Both the position numbers and the translations under genes were made by a program. The notes under the pieces were generated by a model. It saw nothing but the letters and a program-made list of their open reading frames with translations. It was not told where the DNA came from and did not search any database. 64,000 bases of DNA from Gammaproteobacteria bacterium (GTDB taxonomy: Bacteria > Pseudomonadota > Gammaproteobacteria > Burkholderiales > Rhodocyclaceae), in NCBI GenBank assembly GCA_018824085.1, contig JAHJHI010000054.1, positions 7,362-71,361 on the forward strand, read 5' to 3'. Every line of letters starts with the position of its first letter. Positions within the stretch are counted from its first letter, which is position 1. Of the stretch, positions 4,453-9,970 are shown one piece after another.

Positions 4453-5376
4453 TCAGGCGATCGGCCATGTGTCCGCTTGCTTCGCCTCCGTCACTATCCA
4501 TCGTGCGACTTCGTCGATCTCGCTGCGGGACGGGCCTTCCGGGCGGACCAGCCAGTAGGCGCTGGGCGCCGCCGGCAACGGCGCCGGCATCCGGACGACC
4601 CGCAGGCGCCCGTCCGCCAGTGCGCCGCCAAGCAGTTCGAGGCGCCCGAGTGCCACCCCCTGGCCCGCAATGGCGGCATGGATCATCTGGTCGTATTGAT
4701 TGAAGCGCAGCACGCCGCGCGCACGCACACCGTGCCAGCCCTGCGACGCCAGACAGTTCTCCCACTGCAGCCACGGTCGCGCGTCGCCGTCGAACTCGAG
4801 CAGCGTGAGCGCTTCGATGCCCTGCCGGCCATCCAGCGCCGTCAGACCGAGCGAGGGATGCGCGACCGGCGCCACGGTTTCTCCGAAAAGCCTTGTGGCT
4901 CCTTGTGGTGCCGCGTCCGGCGCGCAATAGCGGATGGCCAGGTCGGGGCCGTCCTGGCGCGGATCGGTCAGCCTGCTGGACGCCGCGATGCGCACGTCGA
5001 TGCCTGGATGCCGCTGCAGGAAACCGCCGAGACGGGGCAGCAGCCACAGCCCTGCAACACCGATGCTGGTGGTGATGGTCACCGGGCGGGACCCGGCGCC
5101 GACGCGAATCGCGCCGATCACGTCCTGCAGTTGCCGCACGGCGACGTCGGCAGTCGCAAACAGGCGCGCGCCTTCAGGAGTGAATGCGACGAGGCGGTGG
5201 CCGCGCACCAGCAAGCGCACGCCGAGCAGCGCTTCCAGCGCGCGCACCTGACGGCTCACTGCGGACTGGGTCAGGCACAGGTCCTGCGCCGCCAGCGTGA
5301 TGCTCATGCGGCGCCCGACCGCGACGAAGCCCCGGACGAGATCCAGGGAGGCAAGCCTGGCCAGATCGACTGACAT
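4453..5376 (-). CDS. LysR-family (GcvA-like) transcriptional regulator
   Basis: N-terminal HTH SITLAAQDLCLTQSAVSRQVRALEALLG plus substrate-binding domain. Confidence 0.93.
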   Translation of the reverse strand: MSVDLARLASLDLVRGFVAVGRRMSITLAAQDLCLTQSAVSRQVRALEALLGVRLLVRGHRLVAFTPEGARLFATADVAVRQLQDVIGAIRVGAGSRPVTITTSIGVAGLWLLPRLGGFLQRHPGIDVRIAASSRLTDPRQDGPDLAIRYCAPDAAPQGATRLFGETVAPVAHPSLGLTALDGRQGIEALTLLEFDGDARPWLQWENCLASQGWHGVRARGVLRFNQYDQMIHAAIAGQGVALGRLELLGGALADGRLRVVRMPAPLPAAPSAYWLVRPEGPSRSEIDEVARWIVTEAKQADTWPIA

Positions 5377-5525
5377 TCTCCATCCTCATGCGAAAAAGGC
5401 GCACGGCAGTGTGGACATGCAGTCGCCACTACGTCAAATGGGCGCGCCCGGACGCGCCTGCCGAATGGCTTCCGGGCGCCACAGCCGGCGACGGCAGAAG
5501 CGCTTCACGCCACTGGATGTGGACG

Positions 5526-5550
5526 AAAAAAAGCGGGCAATGCCCGCTTT
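5526..5550 (-). terminator. Rho-independent terminator just after the pqqA-like codons
   Basis: AAAGCGGGC-ATT-GCCCGCTTT followed by a T run on the minus strand. Confidence 0.85.
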
Positions 5551-5571
5551 CTTGTGTTGCCGGCGCGTGAC

Positions 5572-5646
5572 CCAGCGATTGGCGACGTACATGGTGATGT
5601 CAAAGCCGAAACGCGGATCGGTTGCCCTCGGGTTTTGCCAGTTCAT
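5572..5646 (-). pseudogene. pqqA: pqqA-like precursor peptide gene with E to D at the core residue and the stop changed to TGG (ORF reads through to 5434)
   Basis: MNWQNPRATDPRFGFDITMYVANR matches the PqqA pattern (W..P...D.R.GFEITMY.ANR). Strong RBS AAGGAG upstream; terminator downstream. Confidence 0.8.
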
Positions 5647-5749
5647 GCTGATCTCCTTTGAGTGACTTCATTCCACGGCCAGCACCGTGCATGCACCCGT
5701 CGTCGCGCATCGCGTGCCGCACGACCTCCGGCAACCCGCGAAAGAGGGC

Positions 5750-6904
5750 TCATGATTTTCCCGGGAGCAAGGGAGCGAACGCGTCCGGCAGCAGACAGTT
5801 CTGCAGGCTGCGCTGCGAGAACAGGTAGCGGCCGTCGCACACGAATCCGAGCTCGTGCCAGTCGACGGCGTCGTTGAGCAGCGCCGTCGCCGCCTGCAGA
5901 TCGCAGGACGCGTCACGCGCGAAAAGCGCGAGCACGGAGCCGTCGTAGTCGGGGCATTCGTGCAGGAAAAAGGGGCGCGCCTTGCGCGTCTTGCCATTCA
6001 CGTAGATGCGCGGCGCGGCCGAACGGTGGTGCAACCGGCCCCATTGCCACCAGTTGTGTTCGCCGAACGCGCGCACCCGCCGCTGCAGCAATCGCGGTTT
6101 GTGCTGCAGCAGCCAGTCGTTGCGCACGTCGAACCAGGCGCGCCGCGTGAGGCCGGTGTCCACCGTGGTCGAACAGACAAATTCGACATTGCCTTGCGGG
6201 TGCACGAACACGTCGTCCGCGCCCGACACCGCACCGACCCGCACGTCGAACAGCGACGCGAGCGGCACGCGGTAGTCGCCCCGCAGGAACATCAATTGAC
6301 CGTGTTCGCAGTGAAAGCGTCGCCCGTCGCTCATGCGCCGGTCCATGCGCCCCTTCTCGAAACGGAACACCGCGCAATTGGGAATGTAGGCGCCGAACAC
6401 GCGGGCATCGCCCGTTTCGAAGAAGTCCGTGATGCTGCCTTGGGTGAACAGCCAGTCGTTGAGCCGGCGCGCCGCGGTGAGCTTGATGAAGTCGCGCGGC
6501 ACGATGAAAATGAGTTCGCCGCCCTGATCCAGATGACGCACGCACTTTTCGATGAAGAAAAGATAGAGGTTGCTGCGCCGGTCGAACAGATCGCCGCCCA
6601 GACGTTCGCGCGTCGCGGGCAGGATGTCCTGGTAGCGCACATAGGGCGGGTTGCCGATGACGGTATCGAAACGCTCGTCGGTCGGGTAATCGAAGAAATC
6701 CATCACGAGCGCGCCGGCCGGCGCGACCGACGGATCGATCTCGATCGCCGTGCACCCCGGCAACCTGCTCGCGAACGAGCCGTCGCCGGCCGACGGTTCG
6801 AGCACGCGCCCGCGGTTGCGGCGCAGCGCGAGCATGCGTTCCACGACGTCTTCGCGGGTAAAGACCTGGCCCAGGCGTTCCACCCGGTGTATCTGATCGT
6901 CCAT
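5750..6904 (-). CDS. Type II-like N6-adenine DNA methyltransferase (gamma motif order) with C-terminal target-recognition region
   Basis: GQVFT, motif I LEPSAGDG before motif IV IGNPPY, then NLYLFFIEKC. Confidence 0.85.
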   Translation of the reverse strand: MDDQIHRVERLGQVFTREDVVERMLALRRNRGRVLEPSAGDGSFASRLPGCTAIEIDPSVAPAGALVMDFFDYPTDERFDTVIGNPPYVRYQDILPATRERLGGDLFDRRSNLYLFFIEKCVRHLDQGGELIFIVPRDFIKLTAARRLNDWLFTQGSITDFFETGDARVFGAYIPNCAVFRFEKGRMDRRMSDGRRFHCEHGQLMFLRGDYRVPLASLFDVRVGAVSGADDVFVHPQGNVEFVCSTTVDTGLTRRAWFDVRNDWLLQHKPRLLQRRVRAFGEHNWWQWGRLHHRSAAPRIYVNGKTRKARPFFLHECPDYDGSVLALFARDASCDLQAATALLNDAVDWHELGFVCDGRYLFSQRSLQNCLLPDAFAPLLPGKS

Positions 6905-7000
6905 GGCGCAATTGTCCCATGTGCGCATGTCCCCTGTGCTGCGGCCCGCCTTGGGCTACCATCACCGCCCCGACCGACTCGCGAGCCCGGACATCCGCCG

Positions 7001-7972
7001 ATGCTGCATTCCCCGATAGAACCCTACGACAACGGCTGGCTGGAAGTCGGACACGGGCATCGCCTGTATTACGAACAATGCGGCAACCCCGACGGGCAGG
7101 TCGCGCTGTATCTGCACGGCGGCCCCGGCTCGGGTTGCTCGCCGCGCCAGCGCCGGTTCTTCGATCCGCAGCGCCATCGCGTCGTGCTGTTCGACCAGCG
7201 CGGCTGTGGTCGCAGCACGCCTGCGGGCGACGTCGCGAACAACCACACCGACGCGCTGGTGCAGGACATCGAGGCACTGCGCCGGCATCTGGGCATCAGC
7301 CGCTGGCTGGTGTTCGGCGGCTCGTGGGGCGCGACGCTGGCCGTGCTGTGGGCGACGCGCCACCGCGACGCGTGCACCGGCGTCATCCTGCGCGGCCTGT
7401 TCCTCGCCGGTCGTGCCGATCTCGAGTGGTTCTTCCACGGGGTTTCGGCGCTTGCGCCGCAGGCGAACTCCGCATTGATGCAGGTCATTCCGGCGCGCTG
7501 GCGCGACCGGGTGGAAACCTGGCTGGATCGCAGCTTCTCGGGCGCGGACCCGGCGCGCATCGACCGCGTCGTGCTGGCTTGGCGGGCCTACGAGCATGCG
7601 CTCGGCAGCTGGCCCGGCAGCGCCGCGCTGGCCGCGCCGTCGGACGACGAGTGGCCGGCGCTGCGCGCCCGCTATCGCGTGCAGTCGCACTATCTCGCCC
7701 GCCGCTGCTTCCTCGGTGAAGCAAAGGTGCTGGACGCAATCGCCCGTCTGCACGGACTGCCGGTCGCCATCGTCCATGGCAGCCAGGACCTCGTATGCCG
7801 CCCGCAGAACGCCTGGCGCGCTCACCAGACCTTGCGCGGCAGCCGCCTGGCCTGGGCACAGGGCGCGGGCCACGACCCCTTCCATCCGGCCAGTCTGCAG
7901 TTGCTGATGACGGCGCTTGCTGCGCATGAACGCGACGGCCATTTCAACGCGTGGCCGGCGGCCCTGCCATGA
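7001..7972 (+). CDS. pip: Proline iminopeptidase
   Basis: LYYEQCGNPDG..LHGGPGSG; catalytic GGSWG, QD and GH residues. Confidence 0.92.
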   Translation: MLHSPIEPYDNGWLEVGHGHRLYYEQCGNPDGQVALYLHGGPGSGCSPRQRRFFDPQRHRVVLFDQRGCGRSTPAGDVANNHTDALVQDIEALRRHLGISRWLVFGGSWGATLAVLWATRHRDACTGVILRGLFLAGRADLEWFFHGVSALAPQANSALMQVIPARWRDRVETWLDRSFSGADPARIDRVVLAWRAYEHALGSWPGSAALAAPSDDEWPALRARYRVQSHYLARRCFLGEAKVLDAIARLHGLPVAIVHGSQDLVCRPQNAWRAHQTLRGSRLAWAQGAGHDPFHPASLQLLMTALAAHERDGHFNAWPAALP

Positions 7973-9315
7973 GCCTGCGGCTGAAGCTCAATGTGCTGCT
8001 CGCGCTGGTCATCCTGACCTTCACGAGCACGCTGCTCACACTCGAACTGATGGGAACGCAGCGGGCCGTCGGCGAGGAAATCGAGGCGGCCAACCGGGTC
8101 GCCACGCAGTTGCTGACGAGGGTGACGCTGATCTACGCCGACACCGGTGCGCCCGCACTGATCGATTTCCTGATCCGTCTCGGCCGCGTGCGCGCCACCG
8201 AAATACGGCTCATCGACGGCAGCGGCGAGCTGCTCTACAACTCGCCGCCATCGCCCTACAAGGCAGGGCGGGAGGCACCCGGATGGTATGCGCATCTCAT
8301 CCTGCCGCGCCGCCCGCGCCAGGAGATCACGCTGGCCGACCGCGCCGTGCTGGTAGTGGAGGCGGACGCCTCGCGCGCCATTCTTGACGGCTGGGACGAA
8401 GCGCTGCAGCTGCTCGTCACCGGATCGATCGCCATGATTCTGGGCAATGCGCTGGTGTTCTGGCTGGTGGGACGCGCGACACGCCCGTTCAACACCATCG
8501 TGCGCGGCCTCGAACACATGCGGGCCGGCGACTATCACACCCGGCTGTCACCGCTGCCCGGGCGCGAAGCCGGTTCAATGGCCGAAGCATTCAACCGCAT
8601 GGCGCAGTCGATCGAGGACAACATGAATGCTCGGCGTGAAGCGCTCGAAGCGCGCAGCAGTCTGGAACAGAACCGCGAACTGACGCAGTTCATACAAAGC
8701 AGGATCGAAGAGGAACGGCGCGACATCGCACGCGAGCTGCACGATGAAATGGGCCAGGCGGTGACGGCAATCAAGAGCATGGGGCTGTCCATCGTCCGGC
8801 GCGACACCGACACGAATCCGCCCAGCGCCGAAGCGGCACAGCTCATCGTCGACACGGCAAACCACCTGTACGACGTGATGCACAGCATCATTCCCCGGCT
8901 GCGTCCGCTGGCGCTGGACAACCTCGGACTGGAAGACGCGCTGGACGACCTCGTCGCCGAGTGGCGGCGCCATCATCCGGAGACACAGTTCTCACTGTCG
9001 CTGTCGGCGCTGCCGGAGTCACCCGGTGATTCGTTCAAACTCGCGGCCTACCGCATCGTGCAGGAGGCGGTGACCAATGCGCTCAAGCACGCCGGCGCCG
9101 GGAAAATCGCCATTTCCCTTGCCGGCTCGGAACGGTGGCTGGATCTGGCAGTCGAGGACGATGGCAGCGGACTGTCCGCCGGCTGGGCACAGAAGCGCGG
9201 CCACCACGGTGTGCGCGGCATGCGCGAGCGGGCGCAGGCGCTGGGTGGAGAACTGGAACTGACGGCGGCTGACGGTGGGGGCACACGGGTGCACGCCCGT
9301 CTGCCACTTGAATAA
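7969..9315 (+). CDS. HAMP + HisKA_3 sensor histidine kinase (MxcQ/MoxY-like)
   Basis: Two TM segments, HAMP domain, ERRDIARELHDEMGQ H-box, EAVTNALKHA N-box, DDGSG and GVRGMRERA. Confidence 0.9.
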   Translation: MSLRLKLNVLLALVILTFTSTLLTLELMGTQRAVGEEIEAANRVATQLLTRVTLIYADTGAPALIDFLIRLGRVRATEIRLIDGSGELLYNSPPSPYKAGREAPGWYAHLILPRRPRQEITLADRAVLVVEADASRAILDGWDEALQLLVTGSIAMILGNALVFWLVGRATRPFNTIVRGLEHMRAGDYHTRLSPLPGREAGSMAEAFNRMAQSIEDNMNARREALEARSSLEQNRELTQFIQSRIEEERRDIARELHDEMGQAVTAIKSMGLSIVRRDTDTNPPSAEAAQLIVDTANHLYDVMHSIIPRLRPLALDNLGLEDALDDLVAEWRRHHPETQFSLSLSALPESPGDSFKLAAYRIVQEAVTNALKHAGAGKIAISLAGSERWLDLAVEDDGSGLSAGWAQKRGHHGVRGMRERAQALGGELELTAADGGGTRVHARLPLE

Positions 9316-9331
9316 GAACGGGGAGACGAAA

Positions 9332-9970
9332 ATGGGCCCGATCAGGGTGATGCTGGTCGACGATCACGCGGTGGTGCGCATGGGCTTCAAGCTTCTGCTG
9401 GCCGCGTGCGACGACATCGAGGTGGTCGGCGAAGCCGACAGCGGCGAAACCGCTTACCAGCGCTACGCGGAACTCAAACCCGACGTCGTGGTGATGGATC
9501 TGTCCATGCCGGGCATGGGCGGCATCGAGGCAGTGCGTCGGCTGACGGCACGCGACAAGGGCGCCCGGATCCTCGCGCTGTCGGCGCACGAAGACACGGC
9601 GCATCCGAAACGCGTGCTCAAGGCCGGCGCAACCGGCTATCTGTCCAAGCGCGGCGCACCGGAGGCCCTGATCGACGCGGTACGCACCGTTGCAGCCGGA
9701 CGGATGTATCTCGATGCCGAAATCGCACAGAAGCTGGCGATGCAGGACGTGACCGGCGCGCAGAATCCGGTCGAAGCACTGAGCGAGCGCGAGTTCGAGG
9801 TCTTCATCCACCTGGCGCGCGGACAGTCGGTGAACCAGATCGCCGAGACGCTGCACCTGTCGACATCCACCGTCGGCACCCATCTCTACAACGTCAAGCA
9901 GAAGCTCGGCGCCACGAATCAGGCCGAACTGACGCTGATCGCGCTGCGCAACGGCCTGATCGAGGCCTGA
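9332..9970 (+). CDS. NarL/LuxR-family response regulator
   Basis: VMLVDDHAVVRMG receiver, MDLSMPG, C-terminal HTH LSEREFEVF. Confidence 0.93.
   Translation: MGPIRVMLVDDHAVVRMGFKLLLAACDDIEVVGEADSGETAYQRYAELKPDVVVMDLSMPGMGGIEAVRRLTARDKGARILALSAHEDTAHPKRVLKAGATGYLSKRGAPEALIDAVRTVAAGRMYLDAEIAQKLAMQDVTGAQNPVEALSEREFEVFIHLARGQSVNQIAETLHLSTSTVGTHLYNVKQKLGATNQAELTLIALRNGLIEA

What the first reader, a model, noticed from the sequence alone, without database searches (positions are those of the whole stretch)
5526..5660. Orphan pqqA-like peptide gene with an Asp core and a lost stop codon
Seen: strong RBS, then MNWQNPRATDPRFGFDITMYVANR, then TGG where PqqA normally stops, then a terminator about 25 nt later. 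The ExxxY motif needed for the PqqE C-C crosslink is DxxxY. The next in-frame stop (5434) lies beyond the terminator, so the mRNA would be non-stop. No pqqB-E genes are in the window. Inference: either a decaying extra pqqA copy or a variant RiPP-like precursor/PqqD decoy.
Basis: partly seen in the sequence, partly recalled or inferred. Interest (0 to 1): 0.65.

Follow-up and report, generated by a model that had tools for sequence, protein, structure and literature searches.

The report
Decaying spare pqqA gene copy
This is a spare copy of the small gene for the PQQ cofactor precursor peptide; in this one species it has lost its key glutamate and its stop codon while two intact copies remain, so it is most likely an ordinary dying gene.

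Summary
On the minus strand, a strong ribosome-binding site and ATG (5646) open MNWQNPRATDPRFGFDITMYVANR. TGG (5574-5572) stands where PqqA genes stop. A strong terminator hairpin follows, and the next in-frame stop is at 5436-5434.

It is not a sequencing error: 22 contigs from independent assemblies carry the identical 70-residue frame.

It is the ortholog of a canonical orphan pqqA. In every related Methyloversatilis-type genome recovered, the same locus (pqqA, methyltransferase, pip, kinase, regulator) reads ...TDLRFGFEITMY..NR followed by TGA. These include the closest relatives, whose methyltransferase is 84-86% identical. None of 117 related pqqA genes from other genomes has Asp16, Pro11 or a missing stop.

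The peptide scores below both curated PqqA cut-offs (16.5 against 21.1; 19.0 against 20), whereas its ortholog scores 36.7 and 38.5. Glu-to-Asp is reported to abolish PQQ synthesis in Acinetobacter.

The same organism has an intact pqqABCDE operon and a second intact orphan pqqA.

Verdict: a decaying redundant paralog, fixed in this species. A decoy or new-peptide role is not excluded but nothing supports it.

The parts
5651..5659 (-). Ribosome-binding site AAAGGAGAT, 4 nt before the ATG
   Evidence: Read directly. An AGGAGA core is shared with the orthologs and paralogs.
5575..5646 (-). pqqA-derived coding part, 24 codons: MNWQNPRATDPRFGFDITMYVANR
   Evidence: Pfam PqqA scores 16.5 bits against a cut-off of 21.1. 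TIGR02107 scores 19.0 against a cut-off of 20. It aligns collinearly with canonical pqqA of L045, L067, L090, L051, L137 and L142.
5599..5601 (-). Codon 16, GAC (Asp), where all relatives have GAA/GAG (Glu, the residue that PqqE cross-links to Tyr20)
   Evidence: 0 of 117 related genes have Asp although the search pattern allowed it. PMC2294125, citing Goosen 1992, reports that Glu to Asp gives no PQQ.
5614..5616 (-). Codon 11, CCG (Pro), where all relatives have CTG/CTT (Leu); it lies in the leader part
   Evidence: 0 of 117 have Pro although the pattern allowed it.
5587..5589 (-). Codon 20, TAC (Tyr), retained
5572..5574 (-). Former stop codon, now TGG (Trp); orthologs read TGA at this position
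   Evidence: Alignments. All 117 related genes stop here.
5437..5571 (-). Read-through tail of 45 codons (VTRRQHKK...GAPI) running through the terminator. It does not look coding-like.
   Evidence: GC by codon position is 0.61/0.65/0.74, against about 0.7/0.47/0.82 in the neighbouring genes. No Pfam hit. The only homologs are copies of itself. From 5526 downward the region is not homologous to relatives.
5434..5436 (-). First in-frame stop, TGA, about 90 nt beyond the terminator
5526..5553 (-). Intrinsic terminator: GCGGGC-AUU-GCCCGC with U7, extended by A/U pairs
   Evidence: (-25.6 kcal/mol, z = -3.3). The sequence is identical in L045, L067, L090, L051 and L028.
5750..6928 (-). Upstream neighbour on the same strand: Eco57I-type adenine methyltransferase. 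It is conserved at this place in the Methyloversatilis group.
7001..9970 (+). pip (7001-7972), histidine kinase (7969-9315) and NarL-type regulator (9332-9970). This divergent block lies next to pqqA in many Burkholderiales.
4453..5376 (-). Downstream LysR-family regulator gene on the same strand. It is not syntenic with relatives; homology ends at about 5527.

Best explanation
This is a decaying, redundant orphan copy of pqqA in a Methyloversatilis-like betaproteobacterium known only from metagenomes.

Its ancestor was a normal 24-residue PqqA precursor. That gene sat beside a methyltransferase gene and the pip / kinase / regulator block, and it is still intact there in sister species.

On the branch leading to this species the gene picked up five changes: Thr5Asn, Lys7Arg, Leu11Pro, Glu16Asp and TGA to TGG.

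- Glu16 supplies the gamma-carbon that the radical-SAM enzyme PqqE joins to Tyr20. Asp has no such carbon, and Glu to Asp abolished PQQ synthesis in Acinetobacter. The peptide therefore can no longer yield PQQ. This step is inferred from published work.
- Pro11 lies in the leader, the part that docks on the chaperone PqqD, and probably weakens that docking. This is inferred.
- Loss of the stop lets ribosomes run into the terminator. Any transcript ending at the terminator would be a non-stop mRNA, cleared by tmRNA. Read-through transcripts would give a 70-residue product with a junk-like, Arg-rich tail. This is inferred from the sequence; expression was not tested.

The loss is tolerated because the same organism keeps an intact pqqABCDE operon and a second intact orphan pqqA.
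For: 1. Orthology. Window 5527-9970 is collinear and about 80% identical with loci of Methyloversatilis genomes (L045, L067, L090, L051, L046). The terminator is identical. The pqqA there reads MNWQTPKATDLRFGFEITMYIANR followed by TGA.

2. Closest relatives. The relatives with the most similar methyltransferase (86% and 84% aa; L137/L138 and L142) are also canonical.

3. Wider survey. A pattern that allowed [LP] at position 11 and [DE] at position 16 found 117 loci in other genomes. All have Leu, Glu and a stop directly after the core.

4. Type of change. The window carries 5 unique non-synonymous states (counting the stop loss) and 1 unique synonymous state. Among 23 distinct Methyloversatilis-type pqqA sequences the variant states are 5 non-synonymous and 16 synonymous (Fisher p = 0.015).

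5. Family scores. The window peptide falls below both curated cut-offs (Pfam 16.5 against 21.1; TIGR02107 19.0 against 20). The ortholog scores 36.7 and 38.5, and paralog A scores 39.9 on Pfam.

6. Redundancy.
- In the same metagenomes, two more pqqA-bearing contigs have the same depth as the window contig: 30.6 and 33.6 against 31.7 in X1, and 18.3 and 19 against 16.2 in X3.
- L134, from the same study, carries MNWETPKATDLRFGFEITMYVANR with TGA, followed by uninterrupted pqqB, C, D and E.
- The 24-kb X1 contig aligns to pqqBCDE of L041.
- Paralog B shows no change from its FAM5 ortholog L086 at the Glu16 codon or at the stop.

7. The tail has non-coding-like codon-position GC and no homologs.

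8. Literature. Glu to Asp gives no PQQ in A. calcoaceticus (PMC2294125, citing Goosen 1992). PqqE abstracts H from Glu16 and links it to Tyr20, and the N-terminal leader binds PqqD (PMC10906245). Multi-copy and orphan pqqA genes are known in methylotrophs (PMC11317620).
Against: - The ribosome-binding site, the ATG and the reading frame are intact, and there are no indels in 75 nt. The gene could still be translated.
- The degenerate state is fixed in all sampled strains from several habitats. Diversity is too low to tell constraint from drift: 0 SNPs were seen in 227 nt where 1.3 were expected.
- The rough ratio of non-synonymous to synonymous change on this branch is about 0.45 (my own arithmetic from the codon changes). 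That is below 1, and with 8 substitutions it cannot exclude residual or new constraint.
- Glu-to-Asp lethality was shown in another genus, not here.
A dedicated partner enzyme elsewhere cannot be excluded.
Confidence: 0.82

Rival explanations
1. Functional variant peptide. The Asp-core peptide is still made and acts as a PqqD/PqqE decoy that tunes PQQ synthesis, or as a precursor for a different modification.
For: The ribosome-binding site, ATG, Tyr20 and most of the PqqA sequence are retained. The state is fixed in all 22 contigs. Orphan pqqA copies are differentially regulated in other methylotrophs (PMC11317620).
Against: - It is confined to one species. The D-variant pattern found nothing in the JGI metagenome collection, although that collection also lacks this organism, so the scan has no positive control. 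None of 117 genome loci carries it.
- Pro sits in the leader that should bind PqqD.
- The lost stop adds a junk-like tail or makes the mRNA non-stop.
- There is no radical-SAM or PqqD gene in the window.
- The type of change fits relaxed selection.
Confidence: 0.07
2. Regulatory by-product. Because the stop is gone, ribosomes translate into the terminator hairpin and suppress termination. This would couple transcription of the downstream LysR gene to translation of the dead pqqA frame.
For: The frame runs straight through the hairpin (5553-5527) and ends 58 nt before the LysR start on the same strand. The LysR junction is new in this lineage.
Against: This is purely geometric. There are no expression data. 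LysR has its own intergenic region. The arrangement exists in one species only, so there is no comparative support.
Confidence: 0.05
3. A real 70-residue protein gene, as the gene callers listed it.
For: An open frame of 70 codons with a strong ribosome-binding site, called as a gene in several assemblies.
Against: No homolog other than itself among 5.8 billion proteins. No Pfam domain in the tail. Codon-position GC is not coding-like. The tail crosses a conserved terminator and then DNA that is not shared with relatives.
Confidence: 0.03
4. Sequencing or assembly artefact. The true sequence would be an ordinary pqqA with GAA and TGA.
For: The pqqA copies are repeats, and Logan contigs break inside them.
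Against: The sequence is identical in 22 contigs from different samples, assemblers and archives. Contigs run through the gene at full depth with no variant at these positions.
Confidence: 0.01

Closest known systems
PqqA, the PQQ precursor peptide (Pfam PF08042, NCBIfam TIGR02107)
   Same: It descends from a pqqA gene. It has the same size of core region, about 79% identity to the organism's own PqqA (19 of 24 residues), the same ribosome-binding-site and terminator layout, and orthologous synteny with intact pqqA in sister species.
   Different: Asp replaces the cross-linking Glu, Pro replaces the invariant leader Leu, and the stop codon is lost. Scores fall below both curated cut-offs.
Orphan or multi-copy pqqA genes of methylotrophs (M. 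extorquens pqqA2/pqqA3; five copies in Methylovorus sp. MP688)
   Same: It is an extra pqqA copy away from pqqBCDE, in a genome with at least three copies (PMC11317620).
   Different: The described orphan copies keep the E-x3-Y core and a stop. This one does not.
Non-stop mRNAs rescued by tmRNA (trans-translation)
   Same: There is no in-frame stop between the start codon and the intrinsic terminator.
   Different: Here this is an accidental result of a stop-codon mutation. Neither transcription nor tagging was shown.

Membership tests
PqqA (PF08042 / TIGR02107) | Score at or above the curated family cut-off | tested here: not met
   Pfam scores 16.5 bits against a cut-off of 21.1 (13.4 for the 70-aa frame). 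TIGR02107 scores 19.0 against 20. The ortholog scores 36.7 and 38.5, and paralog A scores 39.9.
PqqA (PF08042 / TIGR02107) | Glu-x3-Tyr core that PqqE cross-links | tested here: not met
   The core is Asp16-x3-Tyr20. Glu is invariant in 117 related genes even though Asp was allowed by the search.
PqqA (PF08042 / TIGR02107) | Short peptide (about 23-39 aa) ending a few residues after the Tyr | tested here: not met
   TGG replaces the stop, so the frame runs to 70 aa. All 117 relatives stop after the core, at 23-26 residues.
PqqA (PF08042 / TIGR02107) | Descent from, or orthology with, bona fide pqqA | tested here: met
   It aligns collinearly, with flanks, to canonical pqqA loci of Methyloversatilis genomes.
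PqqA (PF08042 / TIGR02107) | pqqBCDE present in the same organism (adjacent, or elsewhere for orphan copies) | tested here: met
   They are not in the window. An uninterrupted pqqABCDE lies on L134 and on the 24-kb X1 contig, at the same depth and in the same samples.
PqqA (PF08042 / TIGR02107) | Binds PqqD and is cross-linked by PqqE | not testable with these tools
   This needs biochemistry. The literature predicts failure for Glu to Asp (PMC2294125).
Non-stop mRNA / tmRNA substrate | Translated frame reaches the transcript's 3' end without a stop | tested here: inconclusive
   The geometry is met. Transcription, the 3' end and tagging are not known because no RNA runs are available.

The most novel reading that the evidence does not exclude
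The copy may not be inert. It keeps a strong ribosome-binding site and start codon, so it could be translated into an uncross-linkable PqqA look-alike. Such a peptide could compete for PqqD/PqqE and damp PQQ output. Alternatively, its ribosomes could run through the terminator and set the level of read-through into the newly adjoining LysR gene.
Probability: 0.07. Interest if true: 0.5.

Novelty: new member of a known kind. Interest (0 to 1): 0.15.

Why it matters
It matters little beyond annotation. Gene callers list a 70-residue hypothetical protein here that is really a dead pqqA. Automatic pipelines could also count it as a PQQ precursor when inferring PQQ capacity or pqqA copy number in methylotrophs.

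It is a clean natural example of one redundant copy of a tiny, highly constrained peptide gene drifting while its paralogs stay invariant. The substitutions it accumulated hit the positions that biochemistry marks as essential.

The more useful by-product is the context. In many Burkholderiales, pqqA or the whole pqq operon lies back to back with a pip / histidine kinase / NarL-type regulator block. That makes this two-component pair a candidate regulator of PQQ synthesis.

Tried and rejected
- The organism's whole genome could not be searched, so copy number and partner enzymes rest on metagenome contigs.
- Two metagenome-contig scans found nothing: the 30-mer downstream of paralog A and the Asp-core pattern. 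That collection evidently lacks this organism, so the second zero has no positive control.
- PqqB cluster P0026 turned out to be M. universalis-type, not this organism. P0127 was the right one.
- A blastn-short search for paralog B's upstream 30-mer was uninformative.
- Goosen 1992 (PMC206443) is not held, so it is cited through PMC2294125.
- Rfam gave only sub-threshold, terminator-like hits.
- No RNA runs hold the stretch.
- The antisense 122-aa frame (5297-5665, + strand) has no Pfam hit and looks spurious.
- Population data cannot test constraint because diversity is too low.
- A sigma-54-like motif upstream in relatives was considered by eye and dropped because it lacks the -24 GG.

Full report
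**1. Observation**

Read on the minus strand, the stretch has these features:
- AAAGGAGAT at 5659-5651, then four bases and ATG at 5646.
- 24 codons (5646-5575) that read MNWQNPRATDPRFGFDITMYVANR.
- TGG at 5574-5572 instead of a stop.
- A hairpin GCGGGC-AUU-GCCCGC (5547-5533) followed by seven U (5532-5526).

With its flanking A/U pairs the hairpin folds at -25.6 kcal/mol, z = -3.3 against shuffles. The simple scan lists the hairpin only on the plus strand. The frame stays open to TGA at 5436-5434, which gives 70 codons. It omitted two further odd residues, Pro11 and Asn5.

The upstream neighbour on the same strand is an Eco57I-type adenine methyltransferase (5750-6928). The downstream neighbour is a LysR-family regulator (4453-5376). 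tblastn with this organism's own PqqB, C, D and E finds nothing in the window.

**2. Not an artefact**

The 70-residue frame is found letter for letter on 22 contigs from NCBI, JGI, ENA and Logan assemblies of different samples. One of these is the groundwater MAG contig JAHIYC010000038.1 of GCA_018815175.1. Those contigs differ from the window at 0 to 0.5% of positions. Together they show 90 variable sites over 15.6 kb, and none lies in 5434-5660. Logan contigs of four runs cover the gene at full depth without variants at the critical codons.

**3. Family signal**

| Peptide | Pfam PqqA (cut-off 21.1) | NCBIfam TIGR02107 (cut-off 20) |
|---|---|---|
| Window 24-mer | 16.5 bits | 19.0 bits |
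| Orthologous peptide of sister species | 36.7 | 38.5 |
| This organism's operon copy (paralog A) | 39.9 | not run |

The window peptide is recognisably derived from PqqA but fails both curated thresholds.

**4. Relatives**

A degenerate DNA pattern for P-x-A-T-D-[LP]-R-F-G-F-[DE] was scanned over one genome per species. The hits are Methyloversatilis, Variovorax, Oxalobacteraceae, Rubrivivax, Aquabacterium, Ferrovum and others.

All 117 have Leu11 and Glu16, although Pro and Asp were allowed. All stop directly after the core. The nearest peptides are those of Methyloversatilis (MNWQTPKATDLRFGFEITMY[IV]ANR). Methyloversatilis genomes carry three or more copies each.

**5. Orthology**

blastn shows that window 5527-9970 is collinear and about 80% identical with loci of several Methyloversatilis genomes (L045, L067, L090, L051, L046). 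This stretch covers the terminator, pqqA, the methyltransferase, pip, the kinase and the regulator.

In the nucleotide alignment the terminator is identical. The orthologs read ...CGC TGA where the window reads ...CGC TGG. They have GAA where the window has GAC (codon 16), CTG for CCG (codon 11), ACC for AAC (codon 5) and AAG for AGG (codon 7).

A search with the methyltransferase showed a gap between this species (99% identity) and the next relatives (86% and 84%). Those next relatives (L137/L138 and L142) also carry a canonical pqqA with TGA at the same place. That test comes out on the pseudogene side.

**6. Pattern of change**

I compared the window with 23 distinct Methyloversatilis-type pqqA sequences.

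| | Non-synonymous | Synonymous |
|---|---|---|
| States unique to the window | 5 (counting the stop loss) | 1 |
| Variant states among the intact genes | 5 | 16 |

Fisher's test gives p = 0.015.

Four-fold degenerate divergence to the closest relative is 0.34-0.41 in the four neighbouring genes. The branch-specific changes in pqqA are about 3 synonymous and 5 non-synonymous, with no indel. By my own arithmetic from the alignments this gives a ratio near 0.45. That fits constraint being lost part-way along the branch. With so few sites it is only indicative.

**7. Redundancy in the same organism**

When the runs are laid on the window, two further contigs match 5573-5657 with 12 mismatches. 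Their depth equals that of the window contig: 30.6 and 33.6 against 31.7 in X1, and 18.3 and 19 against 16.2 in X3.

*Paralog A.* It lies on a 24-kb contig that aligns to pqqB-E of a Methyloversatilis locus. I recovered the corresponding contig of a sister run as L134, through PqqB cluster member P0127. It holds the exact 30 bases seen as paralog A's loose end. It reads MNWETPKATDLRFGFEITMYVANR with TGA, followed by uninterrupted pqqB, pqqC, pqqD and pqqE.

*Paralog B.* It is the ortholog of the orphan copy of M. universalis FAM5 (L086). A contig spanning it in X5 shows no difference at the Glu16 codon or the stop. One search shows Leu at position 11.

The organism therefore has at least two intact pqqA genes plus the full pathway.

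**8. Mechanistic reading**

PqqE abstracts a hydrogen from Glu16 of PqqA and joins it to Tyr20. The N-terminal leader is held by PqqD (PMC10906245). In Acinetobacter calcoaceticus, Glu to Asp gives no PQQ (PMC2294125, citing Goosen et al. 1992).

From this I infer the following:
- The Asp16 peptide cannot be a PQQ precursor.
- Pro11 probably impairs leader docking on PqqD.
- With the stop gone, transcripts ending at the terminator would be non-stop mRNAs handled by tmRNA.
- Read-through transcripts would give a 70-residue product.

The tail of that product is Arg-rich. Its codon-position GC is not coding-like (0.61/0.65/0.74, against about 0.7/0.47/0.82 in neighbouring genes). It has no Pfam domain and no homolog.

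Expression could not be examined, because no RNA run holds the stretch. No Rfam family matches.

**9. Rivals**

- *Decoy or new-precursor role.* This cannot be excluded, because the ribosome-binding site, the ATG and the frame are intact and the state is fixed in the species. Nothing positive supports it. The state is confined to one species. An Asp-core pattern found nothing in the JGI metagenome collection, although that scan lacks a positive control because the collection does not hold this organism. No partner gene is nearby.
- *Translation-through-terminator effect on the LysR gene.* This rests on geometry alone.
- *A genuine 70-residue protein, or an artefact.* Both are very unlikely, for the reasons in sections 2 and 8.

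**10. Context noticed on the way**

- In 58 of the 117 loci, pqqA lies next to homologs of the window's kinase and regulator. In 38 of them pip lies between. In 34 of the 58 the full pqqBCDE follows pqqA on the other side. The window copy therefore sits at what looks like the ancestral junction between the pqq operon and a two-component system.
- The methyltransferase between pqqA and pip is seen only in the Methyloversatilis group: 5 loci, plus L137, L138 and L142.
- Homology to relatives ends exactly at the end of the terminator. Each lineage has different genes beyond it, for example a HipA/HTH pair in L137/L138 and the LysR module here.

**11. Verdict**

This is a real feature and it was correctly observed. 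It is best explained as a decaying, redundant orphan pqqA paralog (confidence about 0.8). It is ordinary biology and of low interest, apart from correcting the annotation and the pointer to a candidate PQQ regulator.

Noticed in passing
window 7001-9970; loci L011-L127: Homologs of the window's histidine kinase and NarL-type regulator lie next to pqqA in 58 of 117 Burkholderiales loci. pip lies between them in 38. In 34 of the 58, pqqBCDE follows pqqA on the other side. This two-component pair is a candidate regulator of PQQ synthesis.
   Followed up: partly
window 5750-6928: The Eco57I-type methyltransferase between pqqA and pip is present only in the Methyloversatilis group (5 of 117 loci, plus L137, L138 and L142). 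It is absent where pqqA and pip are direct neighbours. It therefore looks like an old insertion that was kept; homologs reach 67-86% identity in Rhodocyclaceae.
   Followed up: partly
window about 5526, and L067 5986-8000, L137 5350-9167, L142 3100-4063: Homology between relatives ends exactly at the 3' end of the pqqA terminator. Each lineage has different genes beyond it: HipA plus an HTH antitoxin in L137/L138, the LysR / oxidoreductase / DSBA / thioesterase module and lateral-flagellar genes in the window. This looks like a recombination or insertion hotspot.
   Followed up: partly
window 5526-5553 versus L137, L142, L046: The window's terminator is identical to that of the more distant L045/L067/L028 group. 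The relatives closest by methyltransferase identity (L137, L142, L046) have a different hairpin (GGCGGGCC..GGTGCCCGCC). This hints at mosaic ancestry of the short pqqA-terminator segment.
   Followed up: no
L134 4031-4111: The operon pqqA of the same organism has two in-frame ATGs (AGGAG ATG AAC ATG AAC TGG...). The first overlaps the ribosome-binding site, so the second is the likely start.
   Followed up: no
X1 contigs of 12584 and 1216 bases: Logan assemblies break inside pqqA paralog B, presumably because the three copies share k-mers. MAGs of this group may therefore under-count pqqA copies.
   Followed up: no
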